Assembly: GCA_964016885.1 (NCBI GenBank)
Contig: OZ024747.1
Location: forward strand, 84,506,001-84,570,000
Direction of reading: 5' to 3'
DNA from: Eledone cirrhosa
Lineage: Eukaryota
DNA length: 64,000 nt
Part shown: in pieces, positions 5,499 to 57,969 of the stretch
Numbering within the stretch: the first letter of the stretch is position 1
Layout: every line of letters begins with the position of its first letter
Made by a program: the position numbers and the translations under genes
Notes under the pieces: model-generated
Told to the model about the DNA's origin: nothing
The model's input: the letters and a program-made list of their open reading frames with translations, nothing else
Database searches by the model: none

Positions 5499-8400
5499 AT
5501 GAAGATGGTGATCTACAGTGATTTTTTGTGGCTTAAAATTTTCTGTGTAAGTCAAATTGTACTCATCACCTGTGCAGATGTCTATACATCAGTTTATAAA
5601 ACGAACAAGTTGGTTAATGAGGAAAGAAAGTTGTTGGCATCTCTTCAAAGCTTCATCGAATCAGAACGTTTGGAAAATAGATCAGTTAATACAGATGTAC
5701 TCAGGTAAAATTTTATTGTTCTCATTGTTATTGTTGTTACTAGTATATAACCCATTATTGGTCTTAACTTATCGTGTGGGCTTTGATCACTATCACACTA
5801 TCTTTTCTATAAATATTTTCATGGGAATTGTAGCTTCATTTCTCTCCAGCCTTCACATGTCCTCTGCAATTACTGTTCTTGTTTCACTACTATACATCAC
5901 ACTTCGCACACAGGCATCATACAACCATCCTTTTGTACGAAGGGAGAAACCTTTTGCTGTCAACAGTTGGAGTAGCTCTCTAAATCTCTTCCATCCTATC
6001 CTTATTCTAATTTGTTCACTTAGATAGCAGAAGCTATCAACCACCTCTATGGATCCTTCATGGGATTGGAAAAGATTTATATCAGTGACACTCGTCTCCT
6101 CGATTACCCCTGTGCATCTTTTACATACAAAGTCTTCCCTTCCTATTATCTATAGTCTACTTGTTATCCCATTACATCTCTGGTGTACCCAAAATTTGCA
6201 TTGTGTACATCATATAGAGTTTATGTCCACACCTTTTCTATATATTGAGTAGGGAAACTACCCTGAAGGAATCAGGGTTCTATCTTCTTTCCTACTTACT
6301 AGCACTTTAGTTTTGGCTAAGTTTGCTCTCAGCCCTTTTAATTCCAAATTCTGTTTCCATAGTCGGAACTTATTCTCTAGTTCTTTTATGGATTCAACTA
6401 TAAGGACCAGGTCACCTGCGTAAGGAAGTTCCTATGGTCATCCAGTCTTAAACTCCTCTGTTATGACCTGGGAAACTATGATGAACAGCAGTTGGCTCAG
6501 AACCGAACCCTGATGAACTCCTACCTATACTTTGAATTCCTCACTAAACTCACTTCCTACTCTCACTTTATATAGCTTGCACTGCTCTCACAAGCCATTC
6601 TTCTACACCTAATTTTCTTAAGGACCACAAGATAACAGAACAAGGTACTTTGTAAAAGTATATAACATTACTTGAAAATAACAAATGGCTTAATACCAAT
6701 AAATATAGATTGTCTTTGCTTTATTCCAGTTTCTTCAACAAAACTCAAATGCAGAACACAAAATTGGGGAATACAACAAATTATGCAAATAATCCATTGA
6801 ATGCATACCACATGCTGTACCGGATTCATAAGACGTGGAGTCAAATGATAGAGAAATTAGACTGTGATGACTGTAAACACAATAATAACACCAAAGGTCA
6901 GTTTAAGAACCCTGTATTTTTAACAGTTGATGTTGTTTAGCTCTATGTCAGCCTTGAAAGAACAGACCTATGATCAAAGAAATTCCACCCAGGACTACAC
7001 TGCTATTTTCTCAGTCATTGTGTGTGTGTATCTAGAATTATATTATCCAATATGTCCTATGTATATAAAGGCATGATGATCAAAGCTAGAATACCTTTGA
7101 ACTTAAGCCTGCTCATTTTGAGCTCACCTAGTAATTATTTTATTTGTGCTTTTCCCTATAAGTAAAAATTGCGATGTGTAATGTTTGGTAGTAGTAAAAT
7201 GTAAACATCACTCATACACACACATGTATGTAAAGAATCATTAGTTACTGACCAGACTATTACTAACTGTTGCATGAGACTACTTTTTGCATAACAATTG
7301 TCATGGTCATCATCATCATCATCATCATCAACATCATCAACACATCATCATCATCATCATCATCAACATCGTCATCAAGACCATGATGTTTATCATTATC
7401 AGTACCTTTACCACCACCATCATCCACACTGGTGGAGGTTGCAAGGAAAATTTCTTAACTCCTAACATCAAGAAGAATCAAGTTGTAGACAAAAGCACTC
7501 ATGCTCCTCCAGGCATTAAGGTCAAAGTTAAGGAATTGGATGTGGTAGAGGAGTTTAAGTATCTTGGCTCTGCTGCTACAAGCAATCTAACCCTAGAAGT
7601 ACATATTTTCTTGTATTGTCCTTTCTAATGACACAGTGTGTTTAGTGCTAAGAATGTTTGTTTTTTTGAAAAATGAATGAATACATTATGTATTTGTGCT
7701 AAATATTTCTGTACTTATCTCAATATCAGGTGCAACATTTTTTTTTTTTTTTTTGTCGTACATTATCTTACATTATTGAAAGTAAATGTTAAGTTCAATT
7801 GAATTGGTTTTATAGACCATCTTCAATTGTACAAAGCCTCTTCCTTCATTTTTCTAAAAATAAAAATAAGCTTCATAAGATCATCATCATCTTCATCAGC
7901 ATCATCATTTAACATCGACTTTCCCTGTTAGCATATCTGTTTTGAGTACAAACATGGCAAGTATGAGTTGCCAACCATCAATGCGATTGTATTTAGTAAA
8001 TTTCATGGAATATTTTGTTGTGTAACAGACTTTATCAAGGAATACAGAAAAGTTCAAGAGCAACTGTGGCCAACTGAAAGGGATATTATTGGAGCAGCCT
8101 TAGGTTTGTTTAGGTAAGATACTATATTTTCAGTGAAGAGAAGAACATTATGCTGGGCATTATTTAATATCCCTGTGGATTGGCAGTATCAGTAGAGGGT
8201 CGGACGCCATGCTTTCTAGCATAGTTACGTCCCTTTACGATCTGAGTTCAAATCCCGCCGAGGTTGACTTTGCCTTTCATCCTAACGGAGTCGATAAAAT
8301 GAAGTACCAGTAATGTACTGGGTAATTGCTGGCCTTGTGCCTAAAATAGAAACAATTATTTAATATCCCTGTATTTAGAATAGGTACACTATATCCCTGC

Positions 8401-11400
8401 ATGTTGACTAAAATGATTGCTATGGGTTAGGGCATCTGGCTGTAGAACGTTGTCTCAAAATATTCCATTCAACCTATGCCACTATGGACTGAAAAACTAG
8501 GATGCAACACATGTTGAATGTGGACCCAATATGAATAAATGTTTAAGAAGTTCACTTGGCAATCATAAGGTTCAGGGCTTGATCTCACTGAGTGACATCT
8601 TAGGCAAGTGTTGTTTACCATACCCCAAATTTGCATTATGTACATCATATAGAGTTTCTGCCTATTCCTTTTCTGCATATCAAACAGGGCCACTTCCCTG
8701 GTGGGATCAGGGCCCTGTCTTCTTTCCTACTTACTAACACTTTAGTTTTTGCAAAGTTTACTCTCTGCCATTTTGACTCTAAATTCAGTTTCCACAGTCA
8801 GAATTTCTTCTCTAGTTCTTCTATCAATTCAGCTAGAAGAACCAGATCGTCTGCATAAAGAAATTCTCTTAGAGAGCCAGTCTTAAATTCCTTTGTTATG
8901 GCCTAGAGAACTATAATGAACAGAAGTGGGCTGAGGACTGAACCTAATGCACTCCTACCTGTACCATGAATTTCTCACTAATCTCCTTTCCTCCTCTTAC
9001 TGACAGCTCCTCTGTATATGGCTTACACTGCTCTCACAAGCTTTTCTTCTACACATAGTTTTCTTAAGGACCTCCTGATGATAGACTGAGGTACTTTGTC
9101 AGAGGCCTTTTCTAAATCAACAAAAGCTAAATATAGAGGTTTATTTTTAGCTAGGACCTTCTCTTGTAGTTGCCTCACTAAGAAGAGGGCACATAACCGA
9201 ACTGCATTTCATCTAATTTTACTCTTTCTTTAATTAGCCATGCTAGAACTCTGTCTGTCTCTTTCATAACTTGGTCCATTAGTTTTATTCCTCTGTAGTT
9301 GTTTCTTTATAGAATTCTAAATAAATAAAAATAATTAGAACAGTTTTGACCAGTTGCCATGTTCACGTGACAGACAGACAAAAATGCGGATTATTATAAT
9401 ATAGATTATTTCTTTCAGATTACAAAATATATACTCCCTGAATATAACTGAGCTGCTGCAAGGTCGTATAACCAATATTCAAACAGAACCAATGAAAACT
9501 AAAGATGTTCTAAATCTAATTGAAATAGCCAATGAGCATGATATGGTCTATGACGAGTTGTTATGGCTTTTGGCATTGGATGAAGTCTATAGTAAGTCAA
9601 AAATCGAGAAAGGAACTGTGGAACAAAACAAAATATATCGAGCTATTGCCAGTGCTTACTCAGTGGTAAATATATTAACATCTTCATTAATTCAAGCAAA
9701 CGTTACAATCAATTAAACTATGTGTACTTTTGTAGTGTGAAGGGACATAACAGAACCTGTGTAACATAACATATACAAAGTGTGTGTGTATCATAATCAT
9801 CATCGATTAACGTCCATCTTCCATGCTAGAATCTCCCAATGGGGATGACACAGGATCAAGTCTTCTAGCACTACGACATATGACAAAAGACCCATGTTGA
9901 CAACTAAACCCCGGACTCTGCTCATAATGGTGCCACACAGCTCCACACTGCAAACACGGTTGATGACAGGCCCGCCCAGTAATATGGCTCCCTTTATGAG
10001 TAAGGCTTAGCATGGTCAACTGACTCAACTACCTTCTTAAACTATGGTTCCACTGTGACCAGGGTATGGTGCGGCCATCTGGCCTAACCCTCCTCATAAC
10101 AGGACCATCCAGTGCCACACTGTAAATGTGGCTGTAGCTCCCAAACTATGGTTCTGCTGTGAGAAGGATTTGGTGAAGTCAACTGGCCTGTTCCATTCTG
10201 ATAATGGTGCCATCCAGTTCCACACTGTTCTATAATGGGCCAATTGATTTTATAATTGTTAATGTTATTATCCTTAGAGTCCATTTATATTTGGATAGTC
10301 AGGTGTCTTTCTTTCAGTCTCTGAATTTTCATGGATACTGATAGGTTTAATCTTTCTGTAAGTATAGGAGATAACTCTAGATGCCTTTCTATCTTATAAC
10401 TAATGATAAACCTCAGTGATTTATTTATTAAATATAATAGCAAGATTCTCATCTCCGACTCAGCAATCAGCTTTTCGGCATCTTAACTTCACAAACATTG
10501 TTGGTTTTATAATGACATGCATTTAAATTTGTATTCAATTGTTGTTTAAGTTAGATTATAAATTAAAGAAATTAATATTTTCTATATATTCTTGTCTTTT
10601 TAGTATGGAATGCCATGGGTTGCACTGGATTATATTGGAAAGTGTTTGAAAATAAGTAAGTTGGTGGTTGAATTTTATACTTGACAATACAGTTTTTGTA
10701 TTTGTTTCTATAATGAATCTTTACTTTTCTCTGTATATGTTATTTAAACATTAATCACAAAGTCATAGAGTAGTTCCTATTTGCTGAACAATTGAAACTG
10801 ACACAAAAGGGTCCGCAGCTTGTATATTTGTTGAGCACTTTTTGGAAGATTAACCTTTTGGCATTTAAACCGGTCATATCCAGCCACATTTCTCTCACCT
10901 CTTTCTATTCAAACTGGATGTAACTGGCTGCTCATATTGATGTTAATGTATTTGTCCTCAAAATAAATAATATCAAAATCTCATAGACTCATTATTATGT
11001 GAGCTAATTGCGTGAGCTAAAGACTTTACTATGAAAATATAATAGTAAATATAGATTAATGTAAATGCTAAAGGGTTAAACTATTCCTCTTGCCAATTTT
11101 ATTTGGATGTGCAACTAATGCAGCATCTATGATTAGTCACCATCCTAGACTTATAGTACACTTAATAAAAAGCAGCTCTTTAAGATTCACTCTGTTTTCA
11201 TAAGCAACACTTAGCCTTTATTACATAAAAATTGCATAATGTTATCAACCCATTTATTACTGTATTACTAATGAAATAATATGAGTTCTAATTAATTTTG
11301 AAAATATCAACACTTATGAAATTTGGTTGTTTTCATTCAGAACCAGATGACAAAGGCTGTCAAAGAGAACAGATATTTTTGCAAAAAAAGTTGAAAAGTA

Positions 11401-14400
11401 TTCCAATAGACAAAAGAACTAAAATACTTGAGAGGCACATTAATTCCAGTACAGTTCAATATGAAGAATTATGTCGAGGTGGCGATCTTCTGGTAACTTT
11501 TTTCTTTTCTTATCATTTTTTTGTTTTTTGGGGGTTTTTTTTTTGCACTTTGCTATTGTATGGTAATGGCTGTTGTTATTGTTGTTGCTCAGGTTCTGTT
11601 TAGCATTGTGTCACAAAGATAATTGTTCAAATGATATGGTGGGATTCCCCAATCCATTGTTTCAGATATGCCTTAGCTCCATCTGACAGCAGACCTTTTT
11701 GTATCCTAGGGCATGCAGTGGTTTACTGTATGATGTGCCTTGTAGCTGTCAAAGGAGCAAATTGTTTTGTATGCCAGTACATTCTTGTGGTCACCACAGC
11801 ATTAATGGGGGAAATGGATTCAGTTGGAACACTAAAGCTACAGTTCTTTCCTATTTATCATTGGGTGAGGTATATGCCTCAGTACAGTGTTTAATACCTA
11901 ATTAGATTACAGTTTATTTTTCTGAAAAAACACTAATGAATTTATAAATATGTATGTTTGAAAACCTTGTACAAGCTTATGCTAAATTTGCACTGCCTGC
12001 CTAAATGCTCCTTATTATAACCATATTAAGGATGTATTAAGCAGCAGTTACATAGGTCAGGTCACTCTTGAGTGCTACTGGTAACATGTAAACCAGTACA
12101 ACCTGTCACATGGTCGGGTCGTCGGCGACTAAACTGGCAACCCCACCAAGTTTACTTGGTGAGGAGGGTGATTTTGGACACCCTGCAGGACAAAAAAAAA
12201 CCTGACAAAGGGCGGAAGAACTCATAAGAGTCAACGGCTATCCAAAAATGTGTAAATATGTATATGCACATGTACATGTGTATGTGTATGCATGTGTATA
12301 TGCCTGGGGTGTCAGGGAGGGGCATATACCTCTGTAGGGGGCGCTAGCCATGCCCTTTTCAGGACAGCTCGTCCTGCATTGGGGCCCACCTGACACTCAG
12401 CTCTCACCTGTGGCCCCAAGAAACTGTAGCATGTGACAGCGACGACACCCCAGTAAACTGCCTTGGTTGGCGGGCTGAACCAGGTTGAGGGTAACTGGAC
12501 GGGTCTGAAACCCCCCGGTGAGTTAGATAGGAGATGCCTGCCCCTGCATGCAAAGACTAGACCCAGCAGAGTGAGTGGAGGAGGACAACATCATCCCAAA
12601 GGTCACAAAGGTGGCGACAGCAAGCAGTGTGGAGCGCTAGGGCACTGCAAGGCACTACAGACATCGTCCCATCCACTGCAGCCAAGGAAGTCCCTGGTCG
12701 TGACGGTCCTCCATGCCACTGGATTCTGGCTTCTGCGGCCGAGTGAGTGGGACCGTCACTGTGCACTGGCCTTCCCACTATAAACCTTTCCCGCACAGGT
12801 TTCTTCTTTAGCGTGCACTCCCAAAGCCATGCGGCGATAGGCAAGAGGCGGAGGTAACAGAAGGAGGTAACCTCTGGGAGTTGCCAGTCTGACTCCTGTC
12901 TCTTCCCCTGCCCCCACTGTCCCCGGACCTGCAAGTCAAGGATCGGCCTCCACAGCCACCTTCGTGCCCACGGCAGACGGGAACAACAATAAAGAAGATG
13001 TCATCATCGTTTACGATGGACAACCAAGACATAGGTCAATTAAAAGTGGCTGAAAAGAAAAAGTCTCAAACCTTCTCGAGTGTATTATATATGCGTGTGT
13101 GTGTGTGTGTTATTTATTGTTTGTTTGCCCAATACTATCAAACGATTTTTAAAATATTTTTTAAAAAAAACCTTATAGTCAAATTTTTGGAAAGCACAAC
13201 TAAAATGCAGTTGGCGAACAACTAAGAATCTGTATTACAGAGTGAAAGAGGAGGTTATGAGTTATAAACCCAGAATTGTCATGTTTCATGACATCATAGG
13301 AGAAGAAGAAATCAACCATATTCTAAAAGAATCTCAGCGAAAGGTAAATAGTATGGCTTTATTTCCCTTTCTTTTGTGTTCTTACTTTCTAACACCCTCT
13401 TTCTCATATACATAAAAATAAATGGCTGCATCTCTGTTTCGAGAATTGCCATCCCTTCACCTTTTTATCATACATGTGTTGCATGAACATGGCATTTTAG
13501 TCCTGCCAAGGACTTAGATTCCTATCTGTATATGCTGCAACAAAAGAAAAAAGAAAGGGCCTGGGTTCACATAAAAAAATATCAAATCCAAACTAAAACT
13601 ACAAGTTTTCCCCTTCAAAATAATCCCCTTGAGTCTAACACATTTTCCCATCCTTCTGTCATACCTCCATGCACTCCTTGAAGGATTTTCCCGGAATTCT
13701 ATGCGCCACCCTGTCCATCATTCAGCAGCTTTGGCACCATCTTTGCGCAGACCCTCGCATACGGGTGGATAGGGGTTAAATCGACTTCACCCTTCTCTTG
13801 CAACTCTTTGTTCCTGTACCTGTGTAAGAATTCATTATTATTATTTTTAGTTCTTCAAATCAAATGTTGGAGATGATGATGTAATTCGTGGGATGACCAC
13901 AAGCCTTGTGAGTGAAAGGTAAAACAATGACCTTTTTATCTGTTTAATCTGTTTACTAATCCTGCTGCGGTACACATCCTGAATATCATATTAGCTAATG
14001 TTGATCCACCATAGTTTATTTCCAACATTGATTGTATATAATCCAGTTTCTGATGTTGATCCAGTAGTTTTGGTATTTATTCTATGTAATCCAGTTTAGT
14101 GTTGATCCTGTGTCATCTAATTACTGGTGTCAATCCTGTATCATCCAGTTACTGGCATTGATCTTGTATAATCCACTTTTTGTTAATACTGTATAATTTT
14201 TATGTTGATCCTATGTAATTCATTTTTATGTTGATACAGTATAATTCATATTTTTATGTTGATCCACTATAATCCCTATTTTTGTGTTTATCTTGTTTAA
14301 ACCATATTTTTATGTTGATTTTGTATAATCTATAATTTTATGTTGATCCAGTATAATCCCTATTTTTAAGTTGATCCAGTATAATCCCTATTTTGTGTTG

Positions 14401-17400
14401 ATCTTGTATAATCCATAGTTTTATGTTGATTTTGTATAATGCAGTTTTTTGTTATTGATTCTGTAATCTGTTTCTAATTTTTCAGTGCATGGCTATGGGA
14501 CTCAGATCCTGTTTTACGTAGATTATCCCACAGGATTGAAACCATCACTGGATTGAATACTCAGCTCAAAGTTTTTGCCTCAAATGCTGAACCACTTCAG
14601 GTAAGAATAATTTATGTTAAACTTAGCTTCTTTAGTCTTTACATTTTGACCACACACAGATGTATTGTTGTTGAGCCCCAGATCAGCTCTGGTTGAACCG
14701 ATCCATGAACACAGATGTTCAAGCTGTATGTATGTATGTATATATGTATGTATGTGTGTATATGTTTGTATGTGTGTATGTGTGCATGTATGTATGTGTG
14801 TATGGGTGTGTATTAAAAATGTGTGTATGTATGTACGGAACTTACATTTTTTATGGAGTCATAGAGAGGTGCATAGTGACATATGATGTGTCTTGGCATT
14901 TAAATCTAGAGGAGCCTATCCCCTCTCCAATTTTAAACACAGCTGACAGAGAGAGAAAGTGATAGAGAGGAAGTGAGAAAGAGATATGGAGGACGAATCA
15001 ACACTAGTACTTAACTGGTACTCTTTTATTGACCTCAAAAGGATGAAAGGTGAAGTTGACTTTGGCAGTATTTGAACTCAAAGCACAAAGAGCTTGAACG
15101 AATACCAAAAACATTCTATCCAATGTTTTAATCTCCATTGAAAATCTTTTGCTCTATCACTGGTTTGACCTAGTGGACTGTGTCTATGATGTAACACTGT
15201 ATGTATTTATGTTTGCTATTAAATTTTGTTCATAGGTTGTAAATTATGGTATTGGAGGAAGGCATGAGCAGCATGTTGATTATTTTGTAAGTATTTGTCT
15301 TTTTCTTTTTTTGTTCCACAAATATTTTAACCCTTTCATCAACAAGCACTTAAATCTAAGGGTCTAGAACATACGCTGTTGTTTTTTTTAACCTTTTTGA
15401 TACCAATCCACCCAAAACCACTAATTCTAATGAGTTCCTATTTAAGTTAAAGCCTTCTAGTATATATTTTAATCTTTTGTTATGTTACAAATACCATCTT
15501 TATGAAAAATTAATCATCATCCCCCTCATTTCTTTTTTTATAATTTATCATCCAGGAATCTAAGGAGCAGCTGGAACAATCTGCAAGTCAATTCCTCATT
15601 GGTTCTGGAGATCGTATTGCATCATTAATATTTCAAGTAAGTGACTCTTTACTATTGATTTGGGAGAGAAATTAGTAAAATATGTTGTCAAAATTCTTTT
15701 ACATACTTTAATGTTGCTGTAGGTCATTTTTTTATAGCAAACCACCTGAAACCACCCTAGATTTATAATACAAAACTGCTCATTTTAAAATATTTATCCT
15801 TATATCAAAACCTTACATCATAATTTTATTTTACAAATTTTTTTCCTTATATCATAATTTTTTTCTTTATATAATAATAATTTTATTTTACAAATTTTTT
15901 TCCTTATATCAAAACCTTACATCATAATTTTATTTTACAAATTTTTGTTAAATAAAACAATAATAATTTTGCTTTCCTTTTTTTTACACCACTTCTTTTA
16001 AAACATTGAATTGGAAGAGTCATTAAGAATGTCAGATAGAATGCTTTGCAGTATGCTTTTCAACTCTCTACCCACTGAGGTCAGCTTTGTTTTTCATCCT
16101 TTCAAGGTTGATAAATAAAGTACCAATCTAGTATTGGAATTGATTCTACCTCTATATCTCTTTCTCACTTACTTACTTTCTCCTTTACTTTGTCTTTCTC
16201 TGGAAGAAATTGGTTGTGTTCAGACCTGGAGAGGTTGTGATAGCATCAGAAGTTAAGATCTCATAGATGAAGAGATGGATGGATGCACTGTTTTTTATCA
16301 TTGTTCTTTCTCTCTTTTAGCTATCCGATGTTACACTTGGAGGGACAACTGTTTTCCCAAAGATCAATGTGAATATACCTGTAATAAAGGTAGGTTTTAC
16401 AATTATTTTCTATCGCCAACGTTTGTGGGATGGAAGAAATATTTCAACACAATCTGTCTTATACTGGTTCTAATATATATTCTAATATATCCATAAGGAT
16501 ATTTATCCTACATCTATATCCTATATCCATAAGGATATTTATCCTAACACATTTGATATCAAATCGCATGAAACTACCCCAGATTATATGATACAGATGT
16601 ATTTGTTTTAAAGTGTCTATGACACCTAAACATTTTTTTTTGTATTTCTGATGCAGGGTTCAGCAGTTTTTTGGTACAATTTCAAAAGCAACCAGCGTCG
16701 AGATCCTCGAACATTGCATGCTAGTTGTCCAGTTGTGATTGGATCAAAGTGGGGTAAGTAAGAGTTTAGTTAAAACTACACCATATTGCTAATAGAATGA
16801 AGTGGCTAACAAAAGGCCTATTGTATTGTTTATATAATCTTCAGACGAAGGTTGGTTCATCTTACTAGCTAGCTATACAATAATTCTGGCTTATATGGAA
16901 TACAAGATGGATCTTTCAATGGTTTCGATGACAGGCATTCAGATGTCTGATCAACTGAATGCCTTGCTGTGTAACTGGCTGAATATTTCAGACACATGTA
17001 CTCATAAAATAATTCTCTGGTGGAATCATTATGATGCAATATGACAAGGCTGGACTTTTGAATTACAGGCTAAAGTCCACAGGTTCATCGCCAGGCTTTG
17101 GTGCTCGGGTGAGCTTCAGAACATTTTGGGTGCACACTATAATTCACAATAATTCTAATGCAGAATTTCAGAATAAACACATCCCCATAAAGTTTAAGGG
17201 GAATTACCACAATCACACTGACCCAACCTTTATCACAACAGGCCTGAGAGTTCACTTAGCAGGCTTCCATGGAATTTCCGTCTACCCAATTTAACTCACA
17301 AGGCTTGAGTCAATCCAAAGCTATGGTACAAAAACATTTGTCCAAGATGCCACACAGTATGAATGAACCCAGAACCACATGAATGCAAAGTGAACTTTTT

Positions 17401-18171
17401 AACCATTCAGCCATCCCAGTGTCAACATACAACACATAGGACAAAGTAGTCACCCATATAAAGATAGGTGGTGATATGTAATTAATTGAATTCACTTCAA
17501 TATATGAGAGCTACTTATATCATCAGAACCTTGGAGAATGAATACAAAATGAACTATGCCAGGAGATTTGAACACAGAATGAAGATGAAATAAAGCCATT
17601 TAGTTTGGCATTCTACCATTTAGTCATGCTGAGCTTATAACAACAGTTCTTGAAAATAGAATGAGATCCCTTGAGAATTCCTGGTACAACACATGCTACA
17701 GAGGAAGAGGAGACAGGAACTTCTACCCTCTCTTCATCTGCACCATATATCACACCAGAAATCCCCAACATATTTCATTTCATTTATTGTGGCATGTGAT
17801 TGAGTGTGCGGGGTCTTCACCCCTCCATTTTTTCTTCTTCTAGTATTTCCACACCCTTTTTTTCTTTTTTTAGTACTGTATATATATGTGTGTCTGAAAG
17901 AAATGTATTATATATAACTTTAACTTTGATAGGTTTCGGCCAGTATTGTCTAACTTAATAGCATAAATACAAAAATAGCATAAATATAAAAAATTTATTT
18001 AAAACCTTAGAAACTTGAAAAAATAATAAAACTGTTGTTAAAAAGCCCAGCATATCGTTTAACAGTATTTCTGTTTTGTTTCCAATTTCAGTCTCAAATA
18101 AATGGATTCATGAGATAGGTCAGATGTTCCGACGACTATGTGGATTAAAAGTAAATGCTGAAGATAGTTAA
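5499..18171 (+). CDS. P4HA: Prolyl 4-hydroxylase alpha subunit-like gene 1 (spliced, 14 coding exons, ~544 aa)
   Basis: GT-AG exons with consistent phase: 5499-5704, 6730-6896, 8029-8113, 9419-9665, 10604-10655, 11341-11492, 13179-13343, 13851-13918, 14486-14600, 15236-15286, 15556-15636, 16321-16389, 16657-16753, 18092-18171 (1635 nt, no internal stop). The product has a signal-peptide-like N-terminus, NPLNAYHML, WPTERDIIGAALGLFRLQNIY, YEELCRG, PRIVMFHDII, SAWL, AEPLQVVNYGIGG..HVD, GDRIAS, LSDVTLGGTTVFP, GSAVFWYN, TLHASCPVVIGSKWVSNKWIHE. Confidence 0.93.
5750..6645 (-). mobile_element. Degraded RTE LINE RT fragment in intron 1 of gene 1
   Basis: VDSFCYL..RIGWKRFRELL..KGFSLRTKGWLYDACVRSVMY (ORF 5853-6044), homologous to the 40392-42965 element. 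Confidence 0.85.
8175..8360 (+). mobile_element. tRNA-derived SINE (GGATTGGCAGTATC...GAGTTCAAATCCCGCCGAGGTTGACTTTGCCTTTCATCC family)
   Basis: A-box- and B-box-like motifs. Near-identical copies at 34709-34899, 35647-35825, 26015-26228(-), 32030-32215(-), 50380-50645(-), 58010-58400(-). Confidence 0.8.
8620..9310 (-). mobile_element. Degraded RTE LINE RT fragment in intron 3 of gene 1
   Basis: Minus-strand similarity to the RT core (YADDL, AFVDLEKA, YRGIKL) of the 40392-42965 element. Confidence 0.8.
12055..13030 (+). mobile_element. GC-rich interspersed repeat, probably the 5' UTR/start of a LINE
   Basis: An abrupt GC-rich insert in AT-rich intron 6 of gene 1, with motifs reminiscent of RTE/BovB-like 5' regions. 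No coherent ORF. Confidence 0.35.
14000..14460. repeat. Degenerate ~30-bp minisatellite (TTGATCCAGTATAATCCCTATTTTTATG-like)
   Basis: About 14 recurring GTTGATCC..TATAATCC units in intron 8 of gene 1, ending just before the 14486 acceptor. Confidence 0.8.
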
Positions 18172-18245
18172 AACAACTAATATACACAACCATGGTTCAT
18201 ATTAACACTAGCAACACTGCATATTATATAACATTATATCATGAA

Positions 18246-19673: not shown

Positions 19674-20526
19674 ATGTTCAAGCTAACAGTCGCTGCAATC
19701 TTTCTGCTGTGGTCCACACAATCATCCATTAATATTAATGGTGAGATCTTTTCATCTGTTGTTAAACTGAAAGTAGTGTCCAATCTGGAACAGATCTTGT
19801 TGAGTACCCTCAGAAAATTTATTGGAAGTCAAAATGGTGTGGAGTCAAGAGATATTGGTGGCCAAAATATGAAGGATATCATTAGGTAAGATTGAAAGAA
19901 ACTGTTTCGTTCCTTATGCTGATTCACTAATATTTATAAGCACACTACTATACATTCAATGTACAGATTACCCTTACCCCACTTTTCTCTTCATTTTCTC
20001 TCACTCTTTCTACCTACCTACCTATCTGGATGGTGAATTGCAGAGTCGTTAGAATGTTGAAAAGAATGGTTTGTAATATTCGTTCTGAGTCTCTGCACTC
20101 TCTGAGTTCAAATACATCTTTTCAAGGTCAATAAAAAAAAAGGTACCAGTCCAGTACTTGAGTCAATTTTTTCTCTATATATCTTTCTCACTTCTTGTCT
20201 CTCACTTTCTCTCTCTCCTTCTCTGAAAGAAATCAGCTCTGGAGCGGAAATGGGTTTCACCAGGTTTAAAGTGCCCAAGATATGTTACATGCAATGAAAG
20301 CACCCTACGATTATATCAAGAGTTACTGGTCTATACATAGCTACCTATTGTCTACTTATATCTTATAAATTTATCTACTTGCCTGTCTCTCTCTTTCTAT
20401 ATCTATATATCCATTTATCTGAAGAAGATTTATTCATTTTATTCACATTCTTACAATATGGGCACAATGGGTGCTCACACAGTTTAATTAGAGAAGCAAT
20501 GTGGTGTGCTAGATTCTTAGTCTCTT

Positions 20527-20559
<33 letters not shown>

Positions 20560-30601: not shown

Positions 30602-30643
<42 letters not shown>

Positions 30644-36600: not shown

Positions 36601-36634
36601 CAGAAGACCGTGTTTATTAGATCCTCATTTGTAA
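19674..36634 (+). CDS. P4HA: Prolyl 4-hydroxylase alpha subunit-like gene 2 (spliced, 13 coding exons, ~547 aa)
   Basis: Exons 19674-19885, 24550-24725, 25447-25775, 26764-26809, 27028-27191, 28306-28467, 28923-28993, 30472-30586, 33551-33601, 34586-34666, 35441-35509, 36193-36289, 36564-36634 (1644 nt, in frame). Motifs: signal peptide MFKLTVAAIFLLWS, WPDADDLQGASLGLLR, FEKLCR, ILYHDVI, RISQSTWL, VINYGIGGLYLPHHD, GDRIATVILYLSDVPLGGETVFP, WYN, LLHGGCPVIFGDKW, KWIREAGQEFRRPC. Confidence 0.93.
20558..20962 (-). mobile_element. RTE LINE 3' UTR copy
   Basis: Highly similar to 421-805, with a (CAT)n tail. Confidence 0.85.
21690..24330 (+). mobile_element. 5'-truncated CR1/L2-like LINE ORF2 (AP endonuclease + reverse transcriptase) with frameshifts, in intron 1 of gene 2
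   Basis: ORF 21706-22701 contains AGDFNH, PTRGDNTLDLLFT and SDH (APE). ORF 22893-24002 contains NYRPVSLTS, YLDFAKAFNSVPH, SGVPQGSVLGPLLF, YADD, ERDLGI, VRPHLEFASPVWNP, LETVQRRATK. Confidence 0.92.
29040..29866 (+). mobile_element. RTE LINE 3' fragment with (GAT)n tail
   Basis: LREKLGISRIRCSVHERNIHWYGHVMHMEDDSC, followed by the shared 3' UTR. Confidence 0.85.
30660..30975 (+). mobile_element. Mariner transposase relic
   Basis: IVTADEKW (mariner IVTGDEKW first catalytic Asp motif) and downstream WWDWKGVIH, with frameshifts. Confidence 0.65.
33140..33520. repeat. ~380-bp (CTT/CCT)n polypyrimidine tract
   Basis: Almost pure C/T. It ends ~30 nt before the acceptor of the HxD exon (33551) of gene 2. 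Confidence 0.9.
34709..34899 (+). mobile_element. Full-length tRNA-derived SINE copy
   Basis: GGCGGTGGATTGGCAGTATCGGTAGAG (A box) ... GAGTTCAAATCCC (B box) ... GCCTTTCATCC ... AAACAATTATT tail. Confidence 0.8.
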
Positions 36635-41200: not shown

Positions 41201-44200
41201 AAATCTGCCTTTCATTTTTAGAGACAAACCTTTTGTGGCCAACAGCGGTATAAGCTCTCTGAACTTTTTCCATCCCGTTCTGACTCTGGCTACTGCACTT
41301 TCAGAACACCCTCCACCACTGCTGATTTCGTCACCCAGGTAACGAAAAGTGTCTACTATTTCTATGGAACCATCTGGGCAATAGAAGGAGCTAGTATCCT
41401 TTGCACACTTGCTACTTATTGCACCTGAGCATTGGCCACATATAAAGTCTACATTCTTAGATAGTTTACCTGTGATCCCACTACATCTTTTATGTACCCA
41501 TACTATGCATTTGGGACATAAAATGGAATTTCTGCCTACTCCTTTCCTACACACTGAGCATGGCCATTTCCCTGAGGGCACCTGTGCCCTATTTTCCTTT
41601 CTACAAACTAGAACTTTAGTCTTAGACAAGTTAACTTTAAGGCCTTTTGATTCTAGGCCATGCTTCCATGTTTCGAATTTCTTCTCTAGTTCAGCCATTG
41701 ATTCAGCTATGAGCGTTAGATCATCTGCGTATAGGAGTTCCCATGGGCAGCCGGTCTTGAACTTCTCTGTTATAGTCTGAAGGGCAATAATAAATAAGAG
41801 GGGGCTAAGTACATAGCCTTGATGAACGCCAACTTTTACACTAAATCCTTTACAATATTCATTGTTAATTCTAACCTTACTGACTGTTTCATTATACATG
41901 GCTTGTATAGCTCTCCAAGCCATTCATCTACACCTAGTAGTTTTCTAAGAGCCCACTAGATAATGGAGCGGGGGACTCTGTCAAAAGCTTTCTCCAGGTC
42001 TACAAAAGCTAAGTAGAGGGGTTTACTTTTAGCTAGGTACTTCTGTAGTTGTCGTACGAGGAAAAGAGCGTCTGTGGTACTTTTACCTGACACAAACCCA
42101 AACTGCATTTCATCTAGATCAATTCGCTCTCTGATTAGTTGCGCTATAACTCTTTCTGTGACCTTCATGACCTGGTCAACTAACTTAATGCCTCTATAGT
42201 TTCCCCTATCTAGAGCATCCCCTTTACCCTTGTAGAAGTTAATGATGATGCTGCTACGCCAGTCTTTCGGTATGATCCCATTCTGTATTACTTGGTTAAC
42301 TATACGGGTGACCATAGTGTGTCCCACCATACCAGATGCCTTCAACATCTCAGCAACTATCTCCGAAGGCCCAGCTGCCTTGCCTGTCTTCATATCTTTG
42401 ATTGCCTTACTTATTATACTACCTTTAACTTGCACTGCTGGTCCTTCTATTGGATCGATTTGGGGCAGACTATCTTTTTCCCATTTATTCTCCTCATTTA
42501 ATAGTCTCTCGTAGTGACACTTCCAGGCTATCTTCTTATCAGTATCAGTGAGCACAAGTACACCATTATTACGGACACACTTCTCCCCGACAACATCACG
42601 GTTTTCCTTAACACATTGTCTAGCAATCCTGAACACCTCACGTTTTTGGTCCTCACGTTGCAGAACATGCTTGAACTTTGCTACCCTTTTTGCAAGGTAC
42701 ACTTGTCTCCTAGCTTCTCTCCTGGCCACTTGATAGTGCTCTCTACTTCCCCCATCCTGCCATACTTTCCAAGCCTGCTTTTTGGCCTTGATTGTCTCTT
42801 CCACCTTACTGTTCCACCACCAAGTTTCTCTCCTCCTGCCAATAGGTCTGCTCCAGCCACAGATTTCATCCGTTGCTTTCAGCAGGTTCACTTTCAAGAA
42901 TTGCCACTGTTCCTCTATATTGCACGTCTCTAATTGCTCTTCCTTATTGTCAAAGGCATCAAGTTGGATTACTTTGAATAAATAATGAATGAATATTACA
43001 TAATTTATCTACTAAATTTTTTTATTCTTGATTAAATATAAATAATTTTGCAGCTTATTTTAAGATTCACCTCTTTAAAATTTTCAAATGTCAACACTTC
43101 CGGTTAGCGATCGCTTAAATAAACATTCATACATTTCCGTCATTAATTTTCCCCTAATGCAATTTATATATAATATAGTCTTTTTTTAATGTATCATGGA
43201 TTACGTTACTGATTACATAAGACAGTGTAACGCAGTCTTCCTTCAATTTCTGTGTATATTGTCAATTATGATTTTATTTGATGTATCATATCTGCATGAA
43301 TATATACTTGCGTATAATATCAATATGCACACTACACATGCTAGCAGAAAACCACCCGAAGGGTGATTTTTCTGCTAGTAAATATAATGAAGGATTGGAG
43401 AGATTTACTAAAATTATTGATTCTGTCACTATTAAAGTGGTATATTTAACATAACTTGACAAAATATATAAAATTTAACAAAAGTTTTAATTTAACAAAA
43501 AATCTCACATAAATTAATGATGGAATGTTTTTAGATAAATATAAACTCTCTAAAATAAACAGTTTTTTTTTATTTTTATTATAGAACCAAGACAATTTCA
43601 GGTATTGAAAGGGTTAAACTTTTAACGACTGTAATTTTAATGATTGTATTTTTAATGAACTACCCTCTATTTTAATTACGTAATGGGGAATTTTAAGGGA
43701 TTTACTAAACTTATGAATTATTTCATCATTAAGATCAGGGCTGAATTTAACCACATGTCAAAAAACACAAACAACAATGAACTAATGAACAATACACACA
43801 CATCACACCAACAATCACCATAATAGTACACATAAAAATATGTTGTTTTTGTTATATTTTTATACAAAAACAACCCACACTGTATTGTCCTTTGCCATCC
43901 TTAATGTTTTCTTGTAAACCATTTGTGGTTAATAAAGAAATCATTACTATTATTATTATTGTTGTTATTATTATACTTACTGCATGTAGAGGTACAAAAA
44001 AACCTTGGACTCCAAAGTTACGAATCTGAAAAATATTTTTATTAAATATTAACAATTATGATCATTATATTGATGATGTCTTAATATTATGTAATAATAT
44101 TAATAGAGGCATATATAGAAGCATATAAAATATGCTTATGTATAACAAACATACATACATTTCACTTTGATAATGTCAAAGTGGCCTCAGTAACTATGTG

Positions 44201-45123: not shown

Positions 45124-45165
<42 letters not shown>

Positions 45166-51100: not shown

Positions 51101-54100
51101 CCACATGCAACAAAAGGCAGGCGAAAGGGGTGGACAACCGAGAATATAATTGAAAATGACCCTTTGAATTGACCCTTTTAATACCAAACATCCTGAAACT
51201 GCCTCTCACTTAACAATACTAAATTGTTTATTGCAAAGTGATTATATTTGTATAAACATCTTCCATCATAATTTAATGTACAAATCTTTGTTAATTTATG
51301 CTCCAAACATTAGCTTAAAATTGAGAAAGTTATATCACCTAACACCTCAAATTTGGATTATTTTCAAGATGGTTTGAAAATCTTAGAGTCTCTTTCATTA
51401 GAATTACAGTAATAAAAAGATTATGTTTTGTTCTAAACATGAGTTTAATAATGAGAAAGTTAGTTATAATTACTAAATTACTCCAAATTCTTGATCATTT
51501 TCAAAATGATTTGAAAGTAATGTCTGTCATTAGAAATATGATAATAAAAGGGTTAAATCAGAACTAGTATCAATAATAGAATTCCTTGCTTTTTTACCAT
51601 TCATAACTCAAGATGTAAAGAAATATATTTCTCACCTGATCAATACCAAGTTTTCTTATTGAATTTGTGATATTGTTATTAACTAAATCATGGAACAAGA
51701 CAATACGTGGCTTCAGACTGAGAATCTCTGCTTTACCAAATGATAGCTGCTTATGTGTAGGATGTAAGTAACAATAGAGTTGTGATGTTTTCTTAACTGG
51801 CTGTAAAAAAGATAAAATACAGAACATAGAAATATCAAAGATAAGTTCCTAGTAATATAAAAACTATTACAGCCTTCATTTGCAAGCAGGTATGACTTGG
51901 GAGTAATACTCAGACACCCACTCAACCAACCCTCTATTAATCCAGTGGAACATGCAGGAATGTGGCAGCTGAAAGGACAAAGGGATTAACCAGCACCGGG
52001 CTAGTACTTTCTTTATCAACCCTGAAAGGATGAAAGACAAAGTGGACTTGATGAGATTTGCACTCAGAATGCTGAGACCTCGGAGAAAGATCCAACTCTC
52101 TAATGACACTCCCAATTTGACCACTTTACCTAGCAGTATAAATAATACATGAAGCAGTTCAATGAAAAAAAATTCAACAACAACAAATATTTTAAGGCCA
52201 TTTTCCTTGTTAAAATAAAGGTGAGCCTTGCTGCCTCTATATAGTCTTTTTTGAGCCAATGTTTAACTGTGTCTATCTGGTTTAGAATAGGTACACTATA
52301 TCCCTGTATGTTGTAAGAAGTGACTAAAAGAGTGGCTGTCGAAAAGGGCATCTGGCAGTAAAAATTTGCCTCAAAAAAGTCCTGTTCAACCCATGCCAGC
52401 ATGGAAAAGTCGATGTAAAAAAGATGATGATGATGTTTTACTACTGGATATCATTCCTGGCAACAACCCTTTTAGGTACCTCTTACAACATGCCTAGATA
52501 CTGTGTACCTATTCAAAACTAGATATACTGTAAATTGCAAGGAAAGAATAACTGGTTATTTAGATTAATAAATATATTAGAAAACTTATTTTGATTACAC
52601 TTTGTTTTGAGTAAATACATGAATAAATGTTTGTGAGGGGAAAGAGATGTAATATTTAGGCGTCATCAGATTTGCAGTATCTGTTCCAGTTCTCTGTGTT
52701 CTGGTTTCAAAACCAGCCATGGTTAACTTTTCTTTTCATTCTTTCAGCATTAATAATTAAAGTTCCAATCCAAGACAGGGTTTACAAACTTATTAGAGTG
52801 CCGGACATGATGCCCAGTGGTAGCTGTTCTGGCCTTGTACACCCTGGGTTAAAATCCAACTTCCTTGTCACTGGAAAAATGGTGATATGAGAAAACTGGG
52901 GCTTGTATCATTAAAACAGCCAAGAAACTTTCTGTAATATGCCACTTGAAAGTAGGCTGGCCAAACTTGCACAGTTGTGAACCATAACAACAACATATAC
53001 AGTCATCTTTGGCTATATCTTTCTTAGTTTTACACTTCTACTTCTTTCTACATTCATTTCCATCACTCCTTTTACTCAATTATTTTCATTTTTCTTCAAC
53101 ACATGACCCAGCCAACTCATTCCATTTCTCTTCACAACAATATAGCTGTGTCATTAATAAAGAAAGACAAGTTAATTTACCTGAACAATTTCTTTAAGAC
53201 ATAATTTCTCATATTTTGCTTCTTGAATGTCTTCTGGAATTTTTGCCTCTATTTTGCCAGGAGAATTTCTTTGGGACTTTAGTTTCTTCTCAAAAAAGTT
53301 CCTATTTTCTTTTGCACGTTTATTATGGGGGTCTAAAATGGATATAACATAACTTAGACATGGTATAACATAATAATACTTAATAATGAAAAAGTTAATT
53401 ACTTTATTAAGTTCCTCCAAATATATATATATATGTACATAATATTTGAAGGTGTTTAATAAAACAACTAACATTTTCAATATATATATATATGTAACTG
53501 CTTCTTTTAAAGTATTCATACTTATATTAAAATTAAAGCCTTTTATCATAAATCTATGTAAGAACATTCTTTAAGTAATTCTCTGAACTTCTCCTTAATC
53601 ATTTCATTGCCATATTTCTAATGAAATACATTGCCAATGTCTTTCAGTTAATTTTGAAAATAATCAAATATTTGGAAGAATTTAACAAAAAAAAAAAGAG
53701 AGCTGATCATGAAATGATGAACCCCACAGAGATGATGATGAAGGAATACAACAAATAGAAGGATGCTGTGTTGGAAAAGACCCATCTAGCCCATGGAAGC
53801 ATTTGAAAAGAAGTTGATGATAATGATATAGAGAATTCTTGCTGTCAAAAGTTGCAAAAGATAAAAATTTAAATATTTATAAACTTACCTGCATCAAGAA
53901 GTTCATTCAGTACTTTGATTGCTTCTTCATATTGTCCCATCTGAGGATACAAAAAGTGAATAAATTTCTTAATTAGCCTTGAACATTTGGTTATCATGGA
54001 CACTGGAGGTCTTGATGGCAACCAGCTTGAATAGAAAGTAGCTGGTCAAGTCCTGCTCTTTGAATATTTGATTATTTGATATATTTAGGACTAGATTTGT

Positions 54101-57100: not shown

Positions 57101-57969
57101 TACTAGCCTAACACTAGTAACATTCCCAAATATGATAGTTTGCTTCCTACAGTTAGGTAAACTAAGCTACATGTAAACAAACTGAAGTATGAGGTGATGC
57201 TCATGAAGATGCTTGGATACTCCTGTGTCTTAGCCTTTCTATCACTCACAGTAATGGCTTGAGTGTCTTGGATTGCTTTGAAAATCTTTAGAGGGCACCA
57301 CCAGCATTTCCTCTTGTGTGTAATTGAATGTGCATGCATGTGTTTTCCATTTTCTTTTCTTCTTTCTAACTCTTTTTATTAATTTTTTTCTTTTGTAAAT
57401 TATTTATTAGTGTTTCATCATTCATTCCTCCCCCAAATTACTGGCCTTGTGCCTATACTAAAAATCATTATATAAATATTTTAAACTTTCAAATCTAGAG
57501 AGACATAGTAAAATCAACTTAGAACCTATAAAATGCAAGTCCAATAGTTTCTCAAACTGAATATTTCATCTCTACAAATGTATGTAATTATATTATTAAA
57601 TATATATTTTATAGATTAAAAAATGTATTAATAAACATATATTTTATAAATTTAAAAAATTGTATTTACTAATATATATTTCACAGATTAAGAAAAAATG
57701 AATGTAATAAAATAAAATAGAAATACTTACGTTTCTATGTTAATTATGTCTAACTCTGTAGGACTGTTCGCAAATATCTCTTCATTTCGCAACATCTGCA
57801 TTAAAGTGATGATCTCTGATTCTAAACTATATTGCTGTTCTAAATTGATGTATGATGAAAGAGCTGTGTTGGTTATCCGTTTTGAGTAAATAGCAGAAAC
57901 ATTGAGGCAAATCCATATCGAAAGGGCAGCAGTGGTTATAATGACATTAAAATGTGCCATAATAACCAT
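38209..57969 (-). CDS. Divergent prolyl 4-hydroxylase alpha-like gene 3 lacking the catalytic residues (probable pseudoenzyme; 13-14 exons, ~542-553 aa)
   Basis: Minus-strand exons 57969-57731, 56188-56031, 55630-55272, 53940-53889, 53332-53181, 51800-51636, 50761-50715, (46398-46366 optional), 45080-44972, 44025-43981, 40230-40186, 39847-39779, 39210-39138, 38324-38209. All are GT-AG and in phase, and several lengths match gene 1 (52, 152, 165, 69 nt). Motifs: YLNHPFNAFHLIKRL, FPDEGD, DPHNKRAKENRNFF, YEKLC, PRIVLFHD, LNDITEGGQIVFP, GSVLFWY, CP. Exons 50761-50715 and 46398-46366 are the least certain. Confidence 0.82.
38440..38632. mobile_element. piggyBac-like MITE family B
   Basis: TTAACCCTTTT...ATCAAAAGGGTTAA. 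Related copies near 21205-21424, 32641-32893, 39948-40099 and 51170-51556. Confidence 0.6.
40392..42965 (-). mobile_element. ~2.6-kb 5'-truncated RTE-clade LINE (RT with PHD-like finger)
   Basis: ORFs 41956-42897, 41057-41923 and 40740-41273: NYRGIKL, QFGF, AFVDLEKAFDRVPR, VGVHQG, LLYADDL, CSVC..CPKC..WVHKRC..CGQC, FRYLG, GRPRKTW. (GAT)n tail at 40392-40415. Confidence 0.93.
43008..43378 (+). mobile_element. Possible non-autonomous Helitron
   Basis: A|TC start at 43008. The 3' hairpin CTAGCAGAAAACCACCCGAAGGGTGATTTTTCTGCTAG ends in CTAG|T. Confidence 0.45.
44130..44820 (+). mobile_element. Tc1/mariner-superfamily transposase relic
   Basis: LFFSDEKNFEQDQ motif at ~44761-44800, preceded by an HTH-like degraded region. 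Confidence 0.55.
45510..46162 (+). mobile_element. RTE LINE 3' fragment
   Basis: KVDGSYGVER..KTWDEVIKADL, followed by 3' UTR repeats and (GAT)n. Confidence 0.75.
47188..47590. repeat. Local tandem duplications (~101 bp x2 and ~61 bp x2-3)
   Basis: TTATTGAGGTGTATGGCTTGCC...GTATTCAT occurs twice (47188-47388). ACTAAATATTTTAATATATCTGAAGTG units follow. Confidence 0.85.
47590..50226 (+). mobile_element. ~2.6-kb 5'-truncated RTE-clade LINE (second subfamily)
   Basis: PGEECTSQHSLVVSD (end of APE). ORFs 47937-48437, 48536-48943, 49172-49480 and 49504-49899 carry RT motifs and the PHD-like finger. (GAT)n tail; ATCTGAA on both flanks. Confidence 0.93.
56440..57072 (+). mobile_element. RTE 3' fragment whose UTR carries a 49-bp tandem array
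   Basis: KVDGNYGVRRHIKTWDEVITADL. Alternating 49-bp units at 56731-56910. (GAT)n tail. Confidence 0.8.

What the first reader, a model, noticed from the sequence alone, without database searches (positions are those of the whole stretch)
5499..57969. Possible division of labour in the three-gene P4HA cluster: catalytic copies lost the TPR peptide-binding motif, the dead copy kept it
Seen: at the end of the peptide-substrate-binding (TPR) domain, gene 3 reads DPHNKRAKENRNFF. This matches vertebrate P4HA1 DPEHQRANGNLKYF and keeps the Arg and Asn, and NFYTATQWLREAL also matches upstream. Gene 1 has KPDDKGCQREQIFL and gene 2 has DKKNGSSIHDNQLH, both degenerate here, yet both have intact active sites. 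Established knowledge: P4Hs are alpha2beta2 tetramers, and mixed-alpha tetramers exist (C. elegans PHY-1/PHY-2). Inference: the linked genes could encode a heteromeric P4H in which one subunit binds substrate and the other catalyses.
Basis: partly seen in the sequence, partly recalled or inferred. Interest (0 to 1): 0.7.

Follow-up and report, generated by a model that had tools for sequence, protein, structure and literature searches.

The report
Conserved dead prolyl hydroxylase in octopus
Three collagen prolyl-hydroxylase-like genes sit side by side in this octopus-like DNA, and the third has lost every iron-binding residue yet is kept intact in other octopods, so it likely works as a non-enzymatic helper, though probably not as the dedicated substrate-holding partner of its two neighbours.

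Summary
The three P4HA genes are real, with open reading frames (544, 547, 542 aa), and the quoted motifs are present.

Gene 3 lacks all three iron ligands and the 2-oxoglutarate lysine. So do all 4 orthologues found (O. bimaculoides, Argonauta, two unnamed records). They are conserved in every domain and keep the predicted fold, so this is a pseudoenzyme, not a pseudogene.

The reciprocal pattern holds in part. Gene 3 keeps Arg223/Asn227 and 6 of 10 groove positions, against 1 and 2 of 10 for genes 1 and 2. But the core Asp192/Tyr193/Tyr196 is lost in all three genes.

The groove loss in genes 1 and 2 is inherited. They lie in a 34-row clade where 0 of 34 keep Arg+Asn, and 90 of 106 catalytically intact relatives sampled lack that pair. 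Trees reject gene 3 as sister of either neighbour. Gene 1's active site is labile (His to Arg in O. sinensis).

Verdict: a conserved, apparently undescribed P4HA pseudoenzyme with a remodelled groove. The division-of-labour heteromer remains possible (about 0.2) but is not the best reading.

The parts
5499..18171 (+). Gene 1, P4HA paralogue, 14 exons, 544 aa; keeps Fe triad and Lys, PSB groove remodelled (1 of 10 positions conservative)
   Evidence: Exon model with all GT-AG introns and no internal stop; 74% identical to O. sinensis P0008
19674..36634 (+). Gene 2, P4HA paralogue, 13 exons, 547 aa; all 8 catalytic-site positions canonical, PSB groove remodelled (2 of 10)
   Evidence: 77-78% identical to O. 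vulgaris/O. sinensis P0005-P0007
38209..57969 (-). Gene 3, catalytically dead P4HA paralogue (pseudoenzyme), 13 exons, 542 aa, open frame; convergent with gene 2, 1.6 kb between stop codons
   Evidence: exon 7 (50715-50761) and last exon (38209-38324) match P0001/P0002; 74% and 69% identical to O. bimaculoides P0001 and Argonauta P0002
55272..55630 (-). Gene 3 exon 3: PSB helices H7-H9; Tyr158>Phe (55431-55433), Asp192>Ser, Tyr193>Leu, Tyr196>Ser, Tyr199>Phe (55275-55298)
53181..53332 (-). Gene 3 exon 5: PSB helix H11 with Arg223 (53316-53318), Asn227 (53304-53306), Phe230, Phe231 kept
43981..44025 (-). Gene 3 exon 9: His-x-Asp site replaced by Leu-x-Ala
39138..39210 (-). Gene 3 exon 12: distal His>Pro (39172-39174), 2OG-binding Lys>Leu (39142-39144); exon 24 nt shorter than in genes 1 and 2
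9419..9665 (+). Gene 1 exon 4: PSB H7-H9 with Asn158, Arg192, Ala193, Ser196, Ser199
11341..11492 (+). Gene 1 exon 6: PSB H11 with Gly223, Glu227, Phe230
15236..15286 (+). Gene 1 exon 10: His-x-Asp kept (15272-15280), Tyr427>His
25447..25775 (+). Gene 2 exon 3: PSB H7-H9 with Gln158, Lys192, Ser193, Ala196, Tyr199
27028..27191 (+). Gene 2 exon 5: insertion plus PSB H11 without Arg223/Asn227
33551..33601 (+). Gene 2 exon 9: Tyr427 and His-x-Asp kept
36193..36289 (+). Gene 2 exon 12: distal His and Lys kept

Best explanation
Gene 3 is a conserved P4HA pseudoenzyme that has lost all iron and 2-oxoglutarate ligands and likely acts in the ER as a PDI-bound, non-catalytic chaperone that would hold proline-rich clients in a remodelled TPR groove, while genes 1 and 2 belong to a separate lineage of P4H alpha subunits that likely hydroxylate their substrates without a canonical PSB groove and without needing gene 3. 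Shown: open frames, the residue losses and retentions, conservation across 5 sequences, separate tree positions. Predicted: the full N-PSB-CAT fold. Inferred: ER location, PDI binding, dimerisation, peptide binding, activity of genes 1 and 2, and independence from gene 3.
For: Gene 3 is open and conserved. Identity to orthologues is about even across domains (N/PSB/CAT 74/78/79% to P0001, 50/51/55% to P0003) and like that of the active neighbours (gene 1 to P0008 74/79/75%, to P0009 45/46/55%). The dead CAT domain has 89 of 211 invariant columns against 37 of 100 in PSB. All 8 catalytic-site positions are non-canonical in gene 3, P0001, P0003 and P0004; P0002 keeps only the Asp. AF2 model of P0001 has pLDDT 84.4, pTM 0.82 and matches the P4HA2 CAT domain (7ZSC, Z 20.6, rmsd 3.2, 204 aligned) and the P4HA1 PSB domain (2V5F, Z 15.1, rmsd 1.9, 97 aligned). 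Cys at the positions of Cys294, Cys311 and Cys504 are kept in 5 of 5, with a C-terminal Cys three residues off Cys529; Cys311 and Cys529 are the PDI-contact cysteines (PMC9676403 section 7). Groove 7 of 10 invariant (p=0.028). Genes 1 and 2 lie in a 34-row clade (FastTree 99; the corresponding subset has SH-aLRT 89) with 26 of 34 catalytically intact and 0 of 34 keeping Arg223+Asn227; 90 of 106 intact non-gene-3 rows lack the pair. A human CAT-PDI dimer without PSB still turns over (PPG)10 (25,700 against 320,500 DPM/nmol; PMC9676403 Table 1).
Against: No expression, localisation or binding data could be examined. The same Table 1 shows that the construct lacking PSB and the dimerisation domain has about 1% of procollagen activity, so if genes 1 and 2 act on collagen they could profit from a binding partner. 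Tight linkage of three old paralogues (20-33% identical) fits co-regulation. Gene 3 inside the PSB-divergent clade is rejected only marginally (AU p=0.047) and gene 3 has a long branch. The family sample is biased to divergent members (query P0008, 50% cluster representatives, 116 of 158 proteins used), has no taxon labels, and would rank dead paralogues low, so I did not test whether other members of that clade have a dead partner. The AF2 fold leans on an alignment of mostly active relatives.
Confidence: 0.45

Rival explanations
1. One reading: gene 3 pairs with gene 1 or gene 2 in a mixed alpha-alpha'-beta2 tetramer, gene 3 holding the substrate and its partner catalysing.
For: Reciprocal Pfam pattern; gene 3 keeps 6 of 10 groove positions including Arg223 and Asn227, which make three of the four direct hydrogen bonds in the PxGP binding mode (PMC12433258); linkage in the window; mixed tetramers in C. 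elegans (PMC3548485); CRTAP precedent (PMC11381544); PSB-less human construct is very weak on procollagen (PMC9676403).
Against: Asp192, Tyr193 and Tyr196 are lost in gene 3 too, while 14 of 16 catalytically intact rows that keep Arg+Asn also keep aromatics at 193 and 196. PSB divergence is shared by the 34-row clade of genes 1 and 2. AU tests reject gene 3+gene 1 (p=0.00015), gene 3+gene 2 (0.005) and all three as one clade (0.0002). O. sinensis gene-1 orthologue lacks His430. Human alpha(I) and alpha(II) do not form mixed tetramers (title in the reference list of PMC12340787 only).
Confidence: 0.2
2. Gene 3 is a regulatory dimer partner of some P4HA (a neighbour or a canonical gene elsewhere): it changes activity or stability through the N-terminal coiled coil, or by competing for PDI, without handing over substrate.
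For: In the tetramer model the catalytic bI-bII loop touches helix alpha2 of the other alpha subunit, and removing the dimerisation domain cuts activity to 44,300 from 320,500 DPM/nmol (PMC9676403). Gene 3 keeps a P4Ha_N domain (61-79 bits in orthologues) and the PDI-contact cysteine.
Against: Does not explain the conserved groove residues. The N-domain is no more conserved than the other domains (58 of 155 invariant). A canonical octopus P4HA was not retrieved by my capped searches, so that partner is recalled, not shown.
Confidence: 0.2
3. Gene 3 has taken up a ligand-binding role unrelated to proline-rich clients, using its closed, metal-free jelly-roll or its new C-terminal tail.
For: The CAT domain is the most invariant domain (89 of 211); its substrate loops are shortened and its C-terminal segment is new and conserved in 5 of 5.
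Against: The N-PSB-CAT architecture and cysteine pattern are all kept; no ligand is indicated by any search.
Confidence: 0.12
4. Gene 3 is a decaying pseudogene or a gene-model artefact.
For: Long stem branch (about 2 changes per column); no O. sinensis or O. vulgaris orthologue was returned.
Against: 13 GT-AG exons, no stop, 12 intron phases shared with genes 1 and 2; 4 full-length orthologues down to 49% identity with the same losses; two lie on 3-4 kb contigs, which implies spliced transcripts (inference).
Confidence: 0.03

Closest known systems
Collagen prolyl 4-hydroxylase alpha subunits P4HA1/P4HA2 (PDB 4BT9, 2V5F, 7ZSC)
   Same: N-PSB-linker-CAT architecture, predicted fold, structural and PDI-contact cysteines; genes 1 and 2 keep His-x-Asp...His, Lys, Tyr421, Thr467; gene 3 keeps Arg223, Asn227, Phe231.
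   Different: No gene here has both modules. Gene 3 has no Fe/2OG ligand and shortened substrate loops; all three lack Asp192, Tyr193, Tyr196.
C. elegans [DPY-18/PHY-1][PHY-2][PDI-2]2 mixed tetramer
   Same: Precedent for two different alpha subunits in one enzyme (PMC3548485, passages).
   Different: Both nematode subunits also form their own complexes with PDI and are not described as dead; Brugia PHY-1/PHY-2 are 52% identical and co-expression added no complex or activity. Gene 3 is about 20% identical to its neighbours.
P3H1/CRTAP/PPIB complex
   Same: A non-enzymatic TPR component recruits collagen for a prolyl hydroxylase (PMC11381544, section 10): the best working analogy for the novel case.
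   Different: Different family (leprecan); CRTAP has no dioxygenase domain (recalled), whereas gene 3 keeps a whole dead CAT domain.
Drosophila P4H-alpha-related expansion (26 genes; CG34041 lacks the CAT domain)
   Same: Invertebrate expansions of divergent P4H alpha genes, one main collagen enzyme, non-catalytic members of unknown function (PMC12340787, passages and Discussion part 1).
   Different: CG34041 is truncated; gene 3 is full-length with point-inactivated catalysis conserved over at least three lineages.

Membership tests
C-P4H alpha family (gene 3, by descent) | N-terminal P4Ha_N domain | tested here: met
   PF08336 61-79 bits in 4 of 4 orthologues; partial hit in window exon 3
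C-P4H alpha family (gene 3, by descent) | Five-helix TPR PSB domain | tested here: met
   PF23558 above cut-off in 4 of 4 orthologues; model aligns to 2V5F, Z 15.1, rmsd 1.9, 97 aligned
C-P4H alpha family (gene 3, by descent) | DSBH CAT fold with structural and PDI-contact cysteines | tested here: met
   7ZSC Z 20.6, rmsd 3.2, 204 aligned; cysteines; the last Cys is shifted by three residues
Active C-P4H enzyme (gene 3) | His-x-Asp...His and 2OG-binding Tyr/Thr/Lys | tested here: not met
   Leu, Ala, Pro; Phe, Ile, Leu; both His and the Lys lost in 4 of 4 orthologues
Canonical collagen-binding PSB (gene 3) | P8 pocket: Tyr158, Asp192, Tyr193, Tyr196, Arg223 | tested here: not met
   Phe, Ser, Leu, Ser, Arg; pocket definition PMC12433258
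Canonical collagen-binding PSB (gene 3) | P5 pocket: Tyr196, Tyr199, Asn227, Tyr230, Phe231 | tested here: inconclusive
   Ser, Phe, Asn, Phe, Phe: four of five kept or conservative, Tyr196 lost
Active C-P4H enzyme (gene 2) | His-x-Asp...His, Tyr421, Tyr427, Thr467, Lys511 | tested here: met
   8 of 8 positions canonical
Active C-P4H enzyme (gene 1) | His-x-Asp...His, Tyr421, Tyr427, Thr467, Lys511 | tested here: inconclusive
   7 of 8, Tyr427>His; O. sinensis orthologue lacks His430, P0009 has 8 of 8
Canonical collagen-binding PSB (genes 1, 2) | Ten groove residues of the P1, P5, P8 pockets | tested here: not met
   0 and 1 of 10 identical; 1 and 2 of 10 with conservative changes
Mixed alpha-alpha'-beta2 P4H (PHY-1/PHY-2 type) | Two different alpha subunits assemble with PDI in the same cells | not testable with these tools
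   Needs co-expression data and co-IP
CRTAP-type substrate-recruiting partner | Non-catalytic subunit binds substrate and raises the partner's activity | not testable with these tools
   Needs binding and kinetic assays

The most novel reading that the evidence does not exclude
Octopods (possibly cephalopods more widely) have built a CRTAP-like split prolyl 4-hydroxylase: a full-length dead P4HA subunit with a re-tooled TPR groove selects a non-canonical proline-rich substrate and delivers it to the linked, groove-less catalytic subunit of gene 2 or gene 1 within one PDI tetramer.
Probability: 0.2. Interest if true: 0.75.

Novelty: new variant of a known kind. Interest (0 to 1): 0.42.

Why it matters
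A full-length, long-conserved, catalytically dead collagen P4H alpha subunit did not appear in my literature searches (listings and abstract starts only), and NCBI names its orthologues simply P4HA1 or P4HA1-like. It is a natural test of what a P4H alpha subunit does besides catalysis (chaperoning, PDI engagement, dimer-mediated activation). The neighbours are natural tests of what the PSB domain is for: they represent a large invertebrate-type lineage with intact active sites and a re-patterned groove. If the heteromer exists, it would show PSB-to-active-site hand-over in trans, an open point in the C-P4H mechanism (32 A gap in the tetramer model, PMC9676403).

Tried and rejected
Complex prediction of the N+PSB regions of the gene-2 orthologue P0007 (24-278) with the gene-3 orthologue P0001 (46-304): no answer, score 0.00 in two runs, alignments not used, cross-species stand-ins.

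First AF2 model on a 4-sequence alignment was poor (pLDDT 45.6) and was dropped for the 106-sequence model.

My first gene 3 model lacked exon 7 and had a wrong last exon, which looked like a frameshifted pseudogene. Splice scoring and the orthologues corrected this. An exon-like stretch at 50853-50909 has stops in all frames and did not score against exon profiles; no fourth P4HA gene or duplicated exon was found.

ESM Atlas returned only generic P4HA and 2OG clusters. The careful IQ-TREE search did not finish; quick trees are used (AU tests on 31 rows, LG+G4).

Cluster membership of P0001/P0002 could not be looked up, so species range and an O. sinensis/O. vulgaris gene 3 stay unchecked. PMC12869072 (passages) held nothing on P4H pseudoenzymes. 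No supplementary files were read; those of the structure and Drosophila papers (sequence alignments) may list other dead P4H alpha proteins.
Full report
Gene models. The window is animal DNA of about 35% GC, rich in interspersed repeats. Reading the sequence and snapping exons to GT-AG sites gives three P4HA paralogues. Gene 1 is +5499-18171 (14 exons, 544 aa), gene 2 is +19674-36634 (13 exons, 547 aa), and gene 3 runs 57969 to 38209 on the minus strand (13 exons, 542 aa). None has an internal stop. They share 12 intron phases; gene 1 has one extra intron. Pairwise identity is 33% (1-2), 22% (1-3) and 20% (2-3). Named relatives are octopod: gene 3 is 74% identical to O. bimaculoides P0001 and 69% to Argonauta hians P0002; gene 1 is 74% to O. 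sinensis P0008; gene 2 is 77-78% to O. vulgaris/O. sinensis P0005-P0007. The source is therefore likely another octopod. The gene 1 and gene 2 orthologues of O. sinensis report the same longest-contig length, which suggests linkage there. Exon profiles found no further P4HA exon in the window.

Catalytic sites. Numbering follows human P4HA2 in PMC9676403 (sections 4, 7 part 1, 8, 9, abstract and passages read); the label R450 is my own count from the 7ZSC alignment and its role is recalled. Gene 2 has 8 of 8 positions (Y421, Y427, H430, D432, R450, T467, H501, K511). Gene 1 has 7 of 8, with Y427>H, a change also seen in gene 2's orthologue P0005. Gene 1's O. sinensis orthologue has H430>R. Gene 3 has 0 of 8 (F, F, L, A, Q, I, P, L). 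P0001, P0003 and P0004 also have 0 of 8; P0002 keeps only the Asp. The hairpin exon, the bII-bIII exon and exon 12 are shorter than in the neighbours.

Gene 3 is a pseudoenzyme. Identity to orthologues is even across domains and parallels the active genes. The dead CAT domain has 89 of 211 columns invariant in five sequences, the N domain 58 of 155, PSB 37 of 100. P0003 and P0004 are unnamed records on 3-4 kb contigs, which implies spliced transcripts; their taxon is not given. An AF2 model of P0001 on 106 sequences (pLDDT 84.4) matches the P4HA2 CAT domain and the P4HA1/2 PSB domains. Cysteines at the 294, 311 and 504 positions are kept and a C-terminal one is shifted by three residues, so PDI binding is a reasonable inference.

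PSB groove. PMC12433258 (passages) defines the pockets: P8 from Y158, D192, Y193, Y196, R223; P5 from Y196, Y199, N227, Y230, F231; P1 near Y230, Y233. It states that Y193A, Y196A and Y230A raise Km for (PPG)10. I mapped these through the P0001-2YQ8 alignment. The model's five helices (203-215, 219-235, 254-267, 271-284, 289-303) put each residue on the helix the paper names for it. Gene 3 reads F S L S F R N F F K: 3 of 10 identical, 6 of 10 with conservative changes. Gene 1 reads N R A S S G E F L K (0 and 1). Gene 2 reads Q K S A Y Q E N Y Q (1 and 2). A second alignment against a profile of 22 canonical-type rows gave the same result for genes 1 and 3 and a different H11 register for gene 2, still without Arg or Asn. 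In gene 3 the replacements S, L, S are themselves invariant in 5 of 5; 7 of 10 groove columns are invariant against 30 of 90 others (p=0.028). That is the pattern of a re-tooled, selected surface rather than a preserved collagen site.

Does the loss in genes 1 and 2 call for a partner? A whole-library search with P0008 gave 150 representatives. Of 158 proteins held, 21 were set aside for vertebrate-type motifs and 21 for length, leaving 116 plus the three window genes. Among 114 rows outside the gene 3 clade, 106 keep H, D, H and K. Of these, 90 lack the R223+N227 pair and 62 score 3 or less of 10 in the groove; 14 of the 16 that keep the pair also have aromatics at 193 and 196, unlike gene 3. 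Genes 1 and 2 fall in a 34-row clade (FastTree 99) with 0 of 34 keeping R+N; 14 of 34 have K/R at 192 together with D/E at 227, against 0 of 80 outside. Gene 3 lies outside on a long branch. AU tests on 31 rows reject all three as one clade (p=0.0002), 3+2 (0.005), 3+1 (0.00015) and 1+2 (0.002), and reject gene 3 joined to the larger clade only marginally (0.047). The sample is biased to divergent proteins, has no taxon labels, aligns poorly in PSB for distant rows, and would miss dead paralogues. It still shows that an intact active site with a divergent groove is an inherited state of an older lineage, not a private complement of gene 3.

Mechanistic background. A human CAT-PDI dimer without N and PSB domains keeps about 8% of activity on (PPG)10 and about 1% on procollagen; with PSB but no N domain about 14% and 5-9% (PMC9676403 Table 1). 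This cuts both ways: groove-less enzymes can work on peptides, but would be poor on collagen. The same paper's model has the catalytic loop touching the other subunit's helix alpha2, which allows a dead subunit to regulate without binding substrate. Mixed tetramers exist in C. elegans and C. briggsae, while co-expressed Brugia subunits gave no added complex (PMC3548485, passages). CRTAP is a non-enzymatic collagen recruiter for P3H1 (PMC11381544, abstract and section 10). Drosophila has 26 P4H-alpha-related genes, one lacking CAT, with one main collagen IV enzyme (PMC12340787, passages and Discussion part 1).

Verdict. Shown: three intact genes; a dead, conserved third gene; partial reciprocity; loss of the groove core in all three; separate ancestry. 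Inferred: gene 3 as a PDI-bound non-catalytic chaperone with a re-tooled groove (0.45), as substrate-holding partner of its neighbours (0.2), as dimer regulator (0.2), with an unrelated ligand role (0.12), or as a pseudogene (0.03). Five searches listed no paper on a cephalopod P4HA pseudoenzyme; the library lacks most subscription journals. The pseudoenzyme is the solid novelty; the division of labour is a testable minority hypothesis. Interest 0.42.

Noticed in passing
window 9639-9641 and 11367-11369 (gene 1); 25749-25751 and 27072-27074 (gene 2): The clade holding genes 1 and 2 often has Lys/Arg at the Asp192 position together with Asp/Glu at the Asn227 position (14 of 34 rows against 0 of 80 outside): a re-patterned, possibly charge-swapped groove rather than plain decay. 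Relatedness inflates the count.
   Followed up: partly
window 10604-11492 and 6730-6896 (gene 1): Gene 1, P0008 and P0009 share an extra Cys pair flanking the H10-H11 loop of the PSB domain and a CxxC in the N domain; possible added disulfides.
   Followed up: no
P0008 residue 430 region; P0006, P0007 C-termini: The O. sinensis gene-1 orthologue has His>Arg in the His-x-Asp motif, and two O. sinensis gene-2 models end before the distal His: further inactivation or assembly error.
   Followed up: partly
window about 55310-55318 (gene 3 exon 3): An N-glycosylation sequon at the start of PSB helix H9 (gene 3 Asn238) is invariant in 5 of 5 gene-3 sequences, six residues before the Asp192 position; a glycan could affect the groove.
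   Followed up: no
window 38209-38324 (gene 3 last exon): Gene 3 has a lineage-specific conserved C-terminal segment followed by a basic tail, low confidence in the model.
   Followed up: no
(P0001-P0008): No named species returned both gene 3 and gene 1/2 orthologues: O. bimaculoides and Argonauta gave gene 3 only, O. sinensis and O. vulgaris gave genes 1/2 only. Weak, capped searches.
   Followed up: partly
window 21676-24002 (+), 41057-43008 (-), 47922-49900 (+): LINE remnants in gene 2 intron 1 (endonuclease and RT ORFs) and in gene 3 introns 9 and 7. The two in gene 3 are about 75% alike in opposite orientation, and the minus-strand copy has a PHD-finger hit after its RT (E 3.7e-6).
   Followed up: partly
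window 60100-62700: Three related retroelement fragments (weak zf-RVT hit, E 0.031) upstream of gene 3.
   Followed up: no
window 8114-9418: Gene 1 has an extra phase-2 intron splitting what is one exon in genes 2 and 3.
   Followed up: no
P0010, P0011, P0028, P0078, P0092: Several database proteins of 940-1120 aa hold two P4HA units in tandem, likely fused models of neighbouring genes, so tandem P4HA arrays occur elsewhere too.
   Followed up: partly
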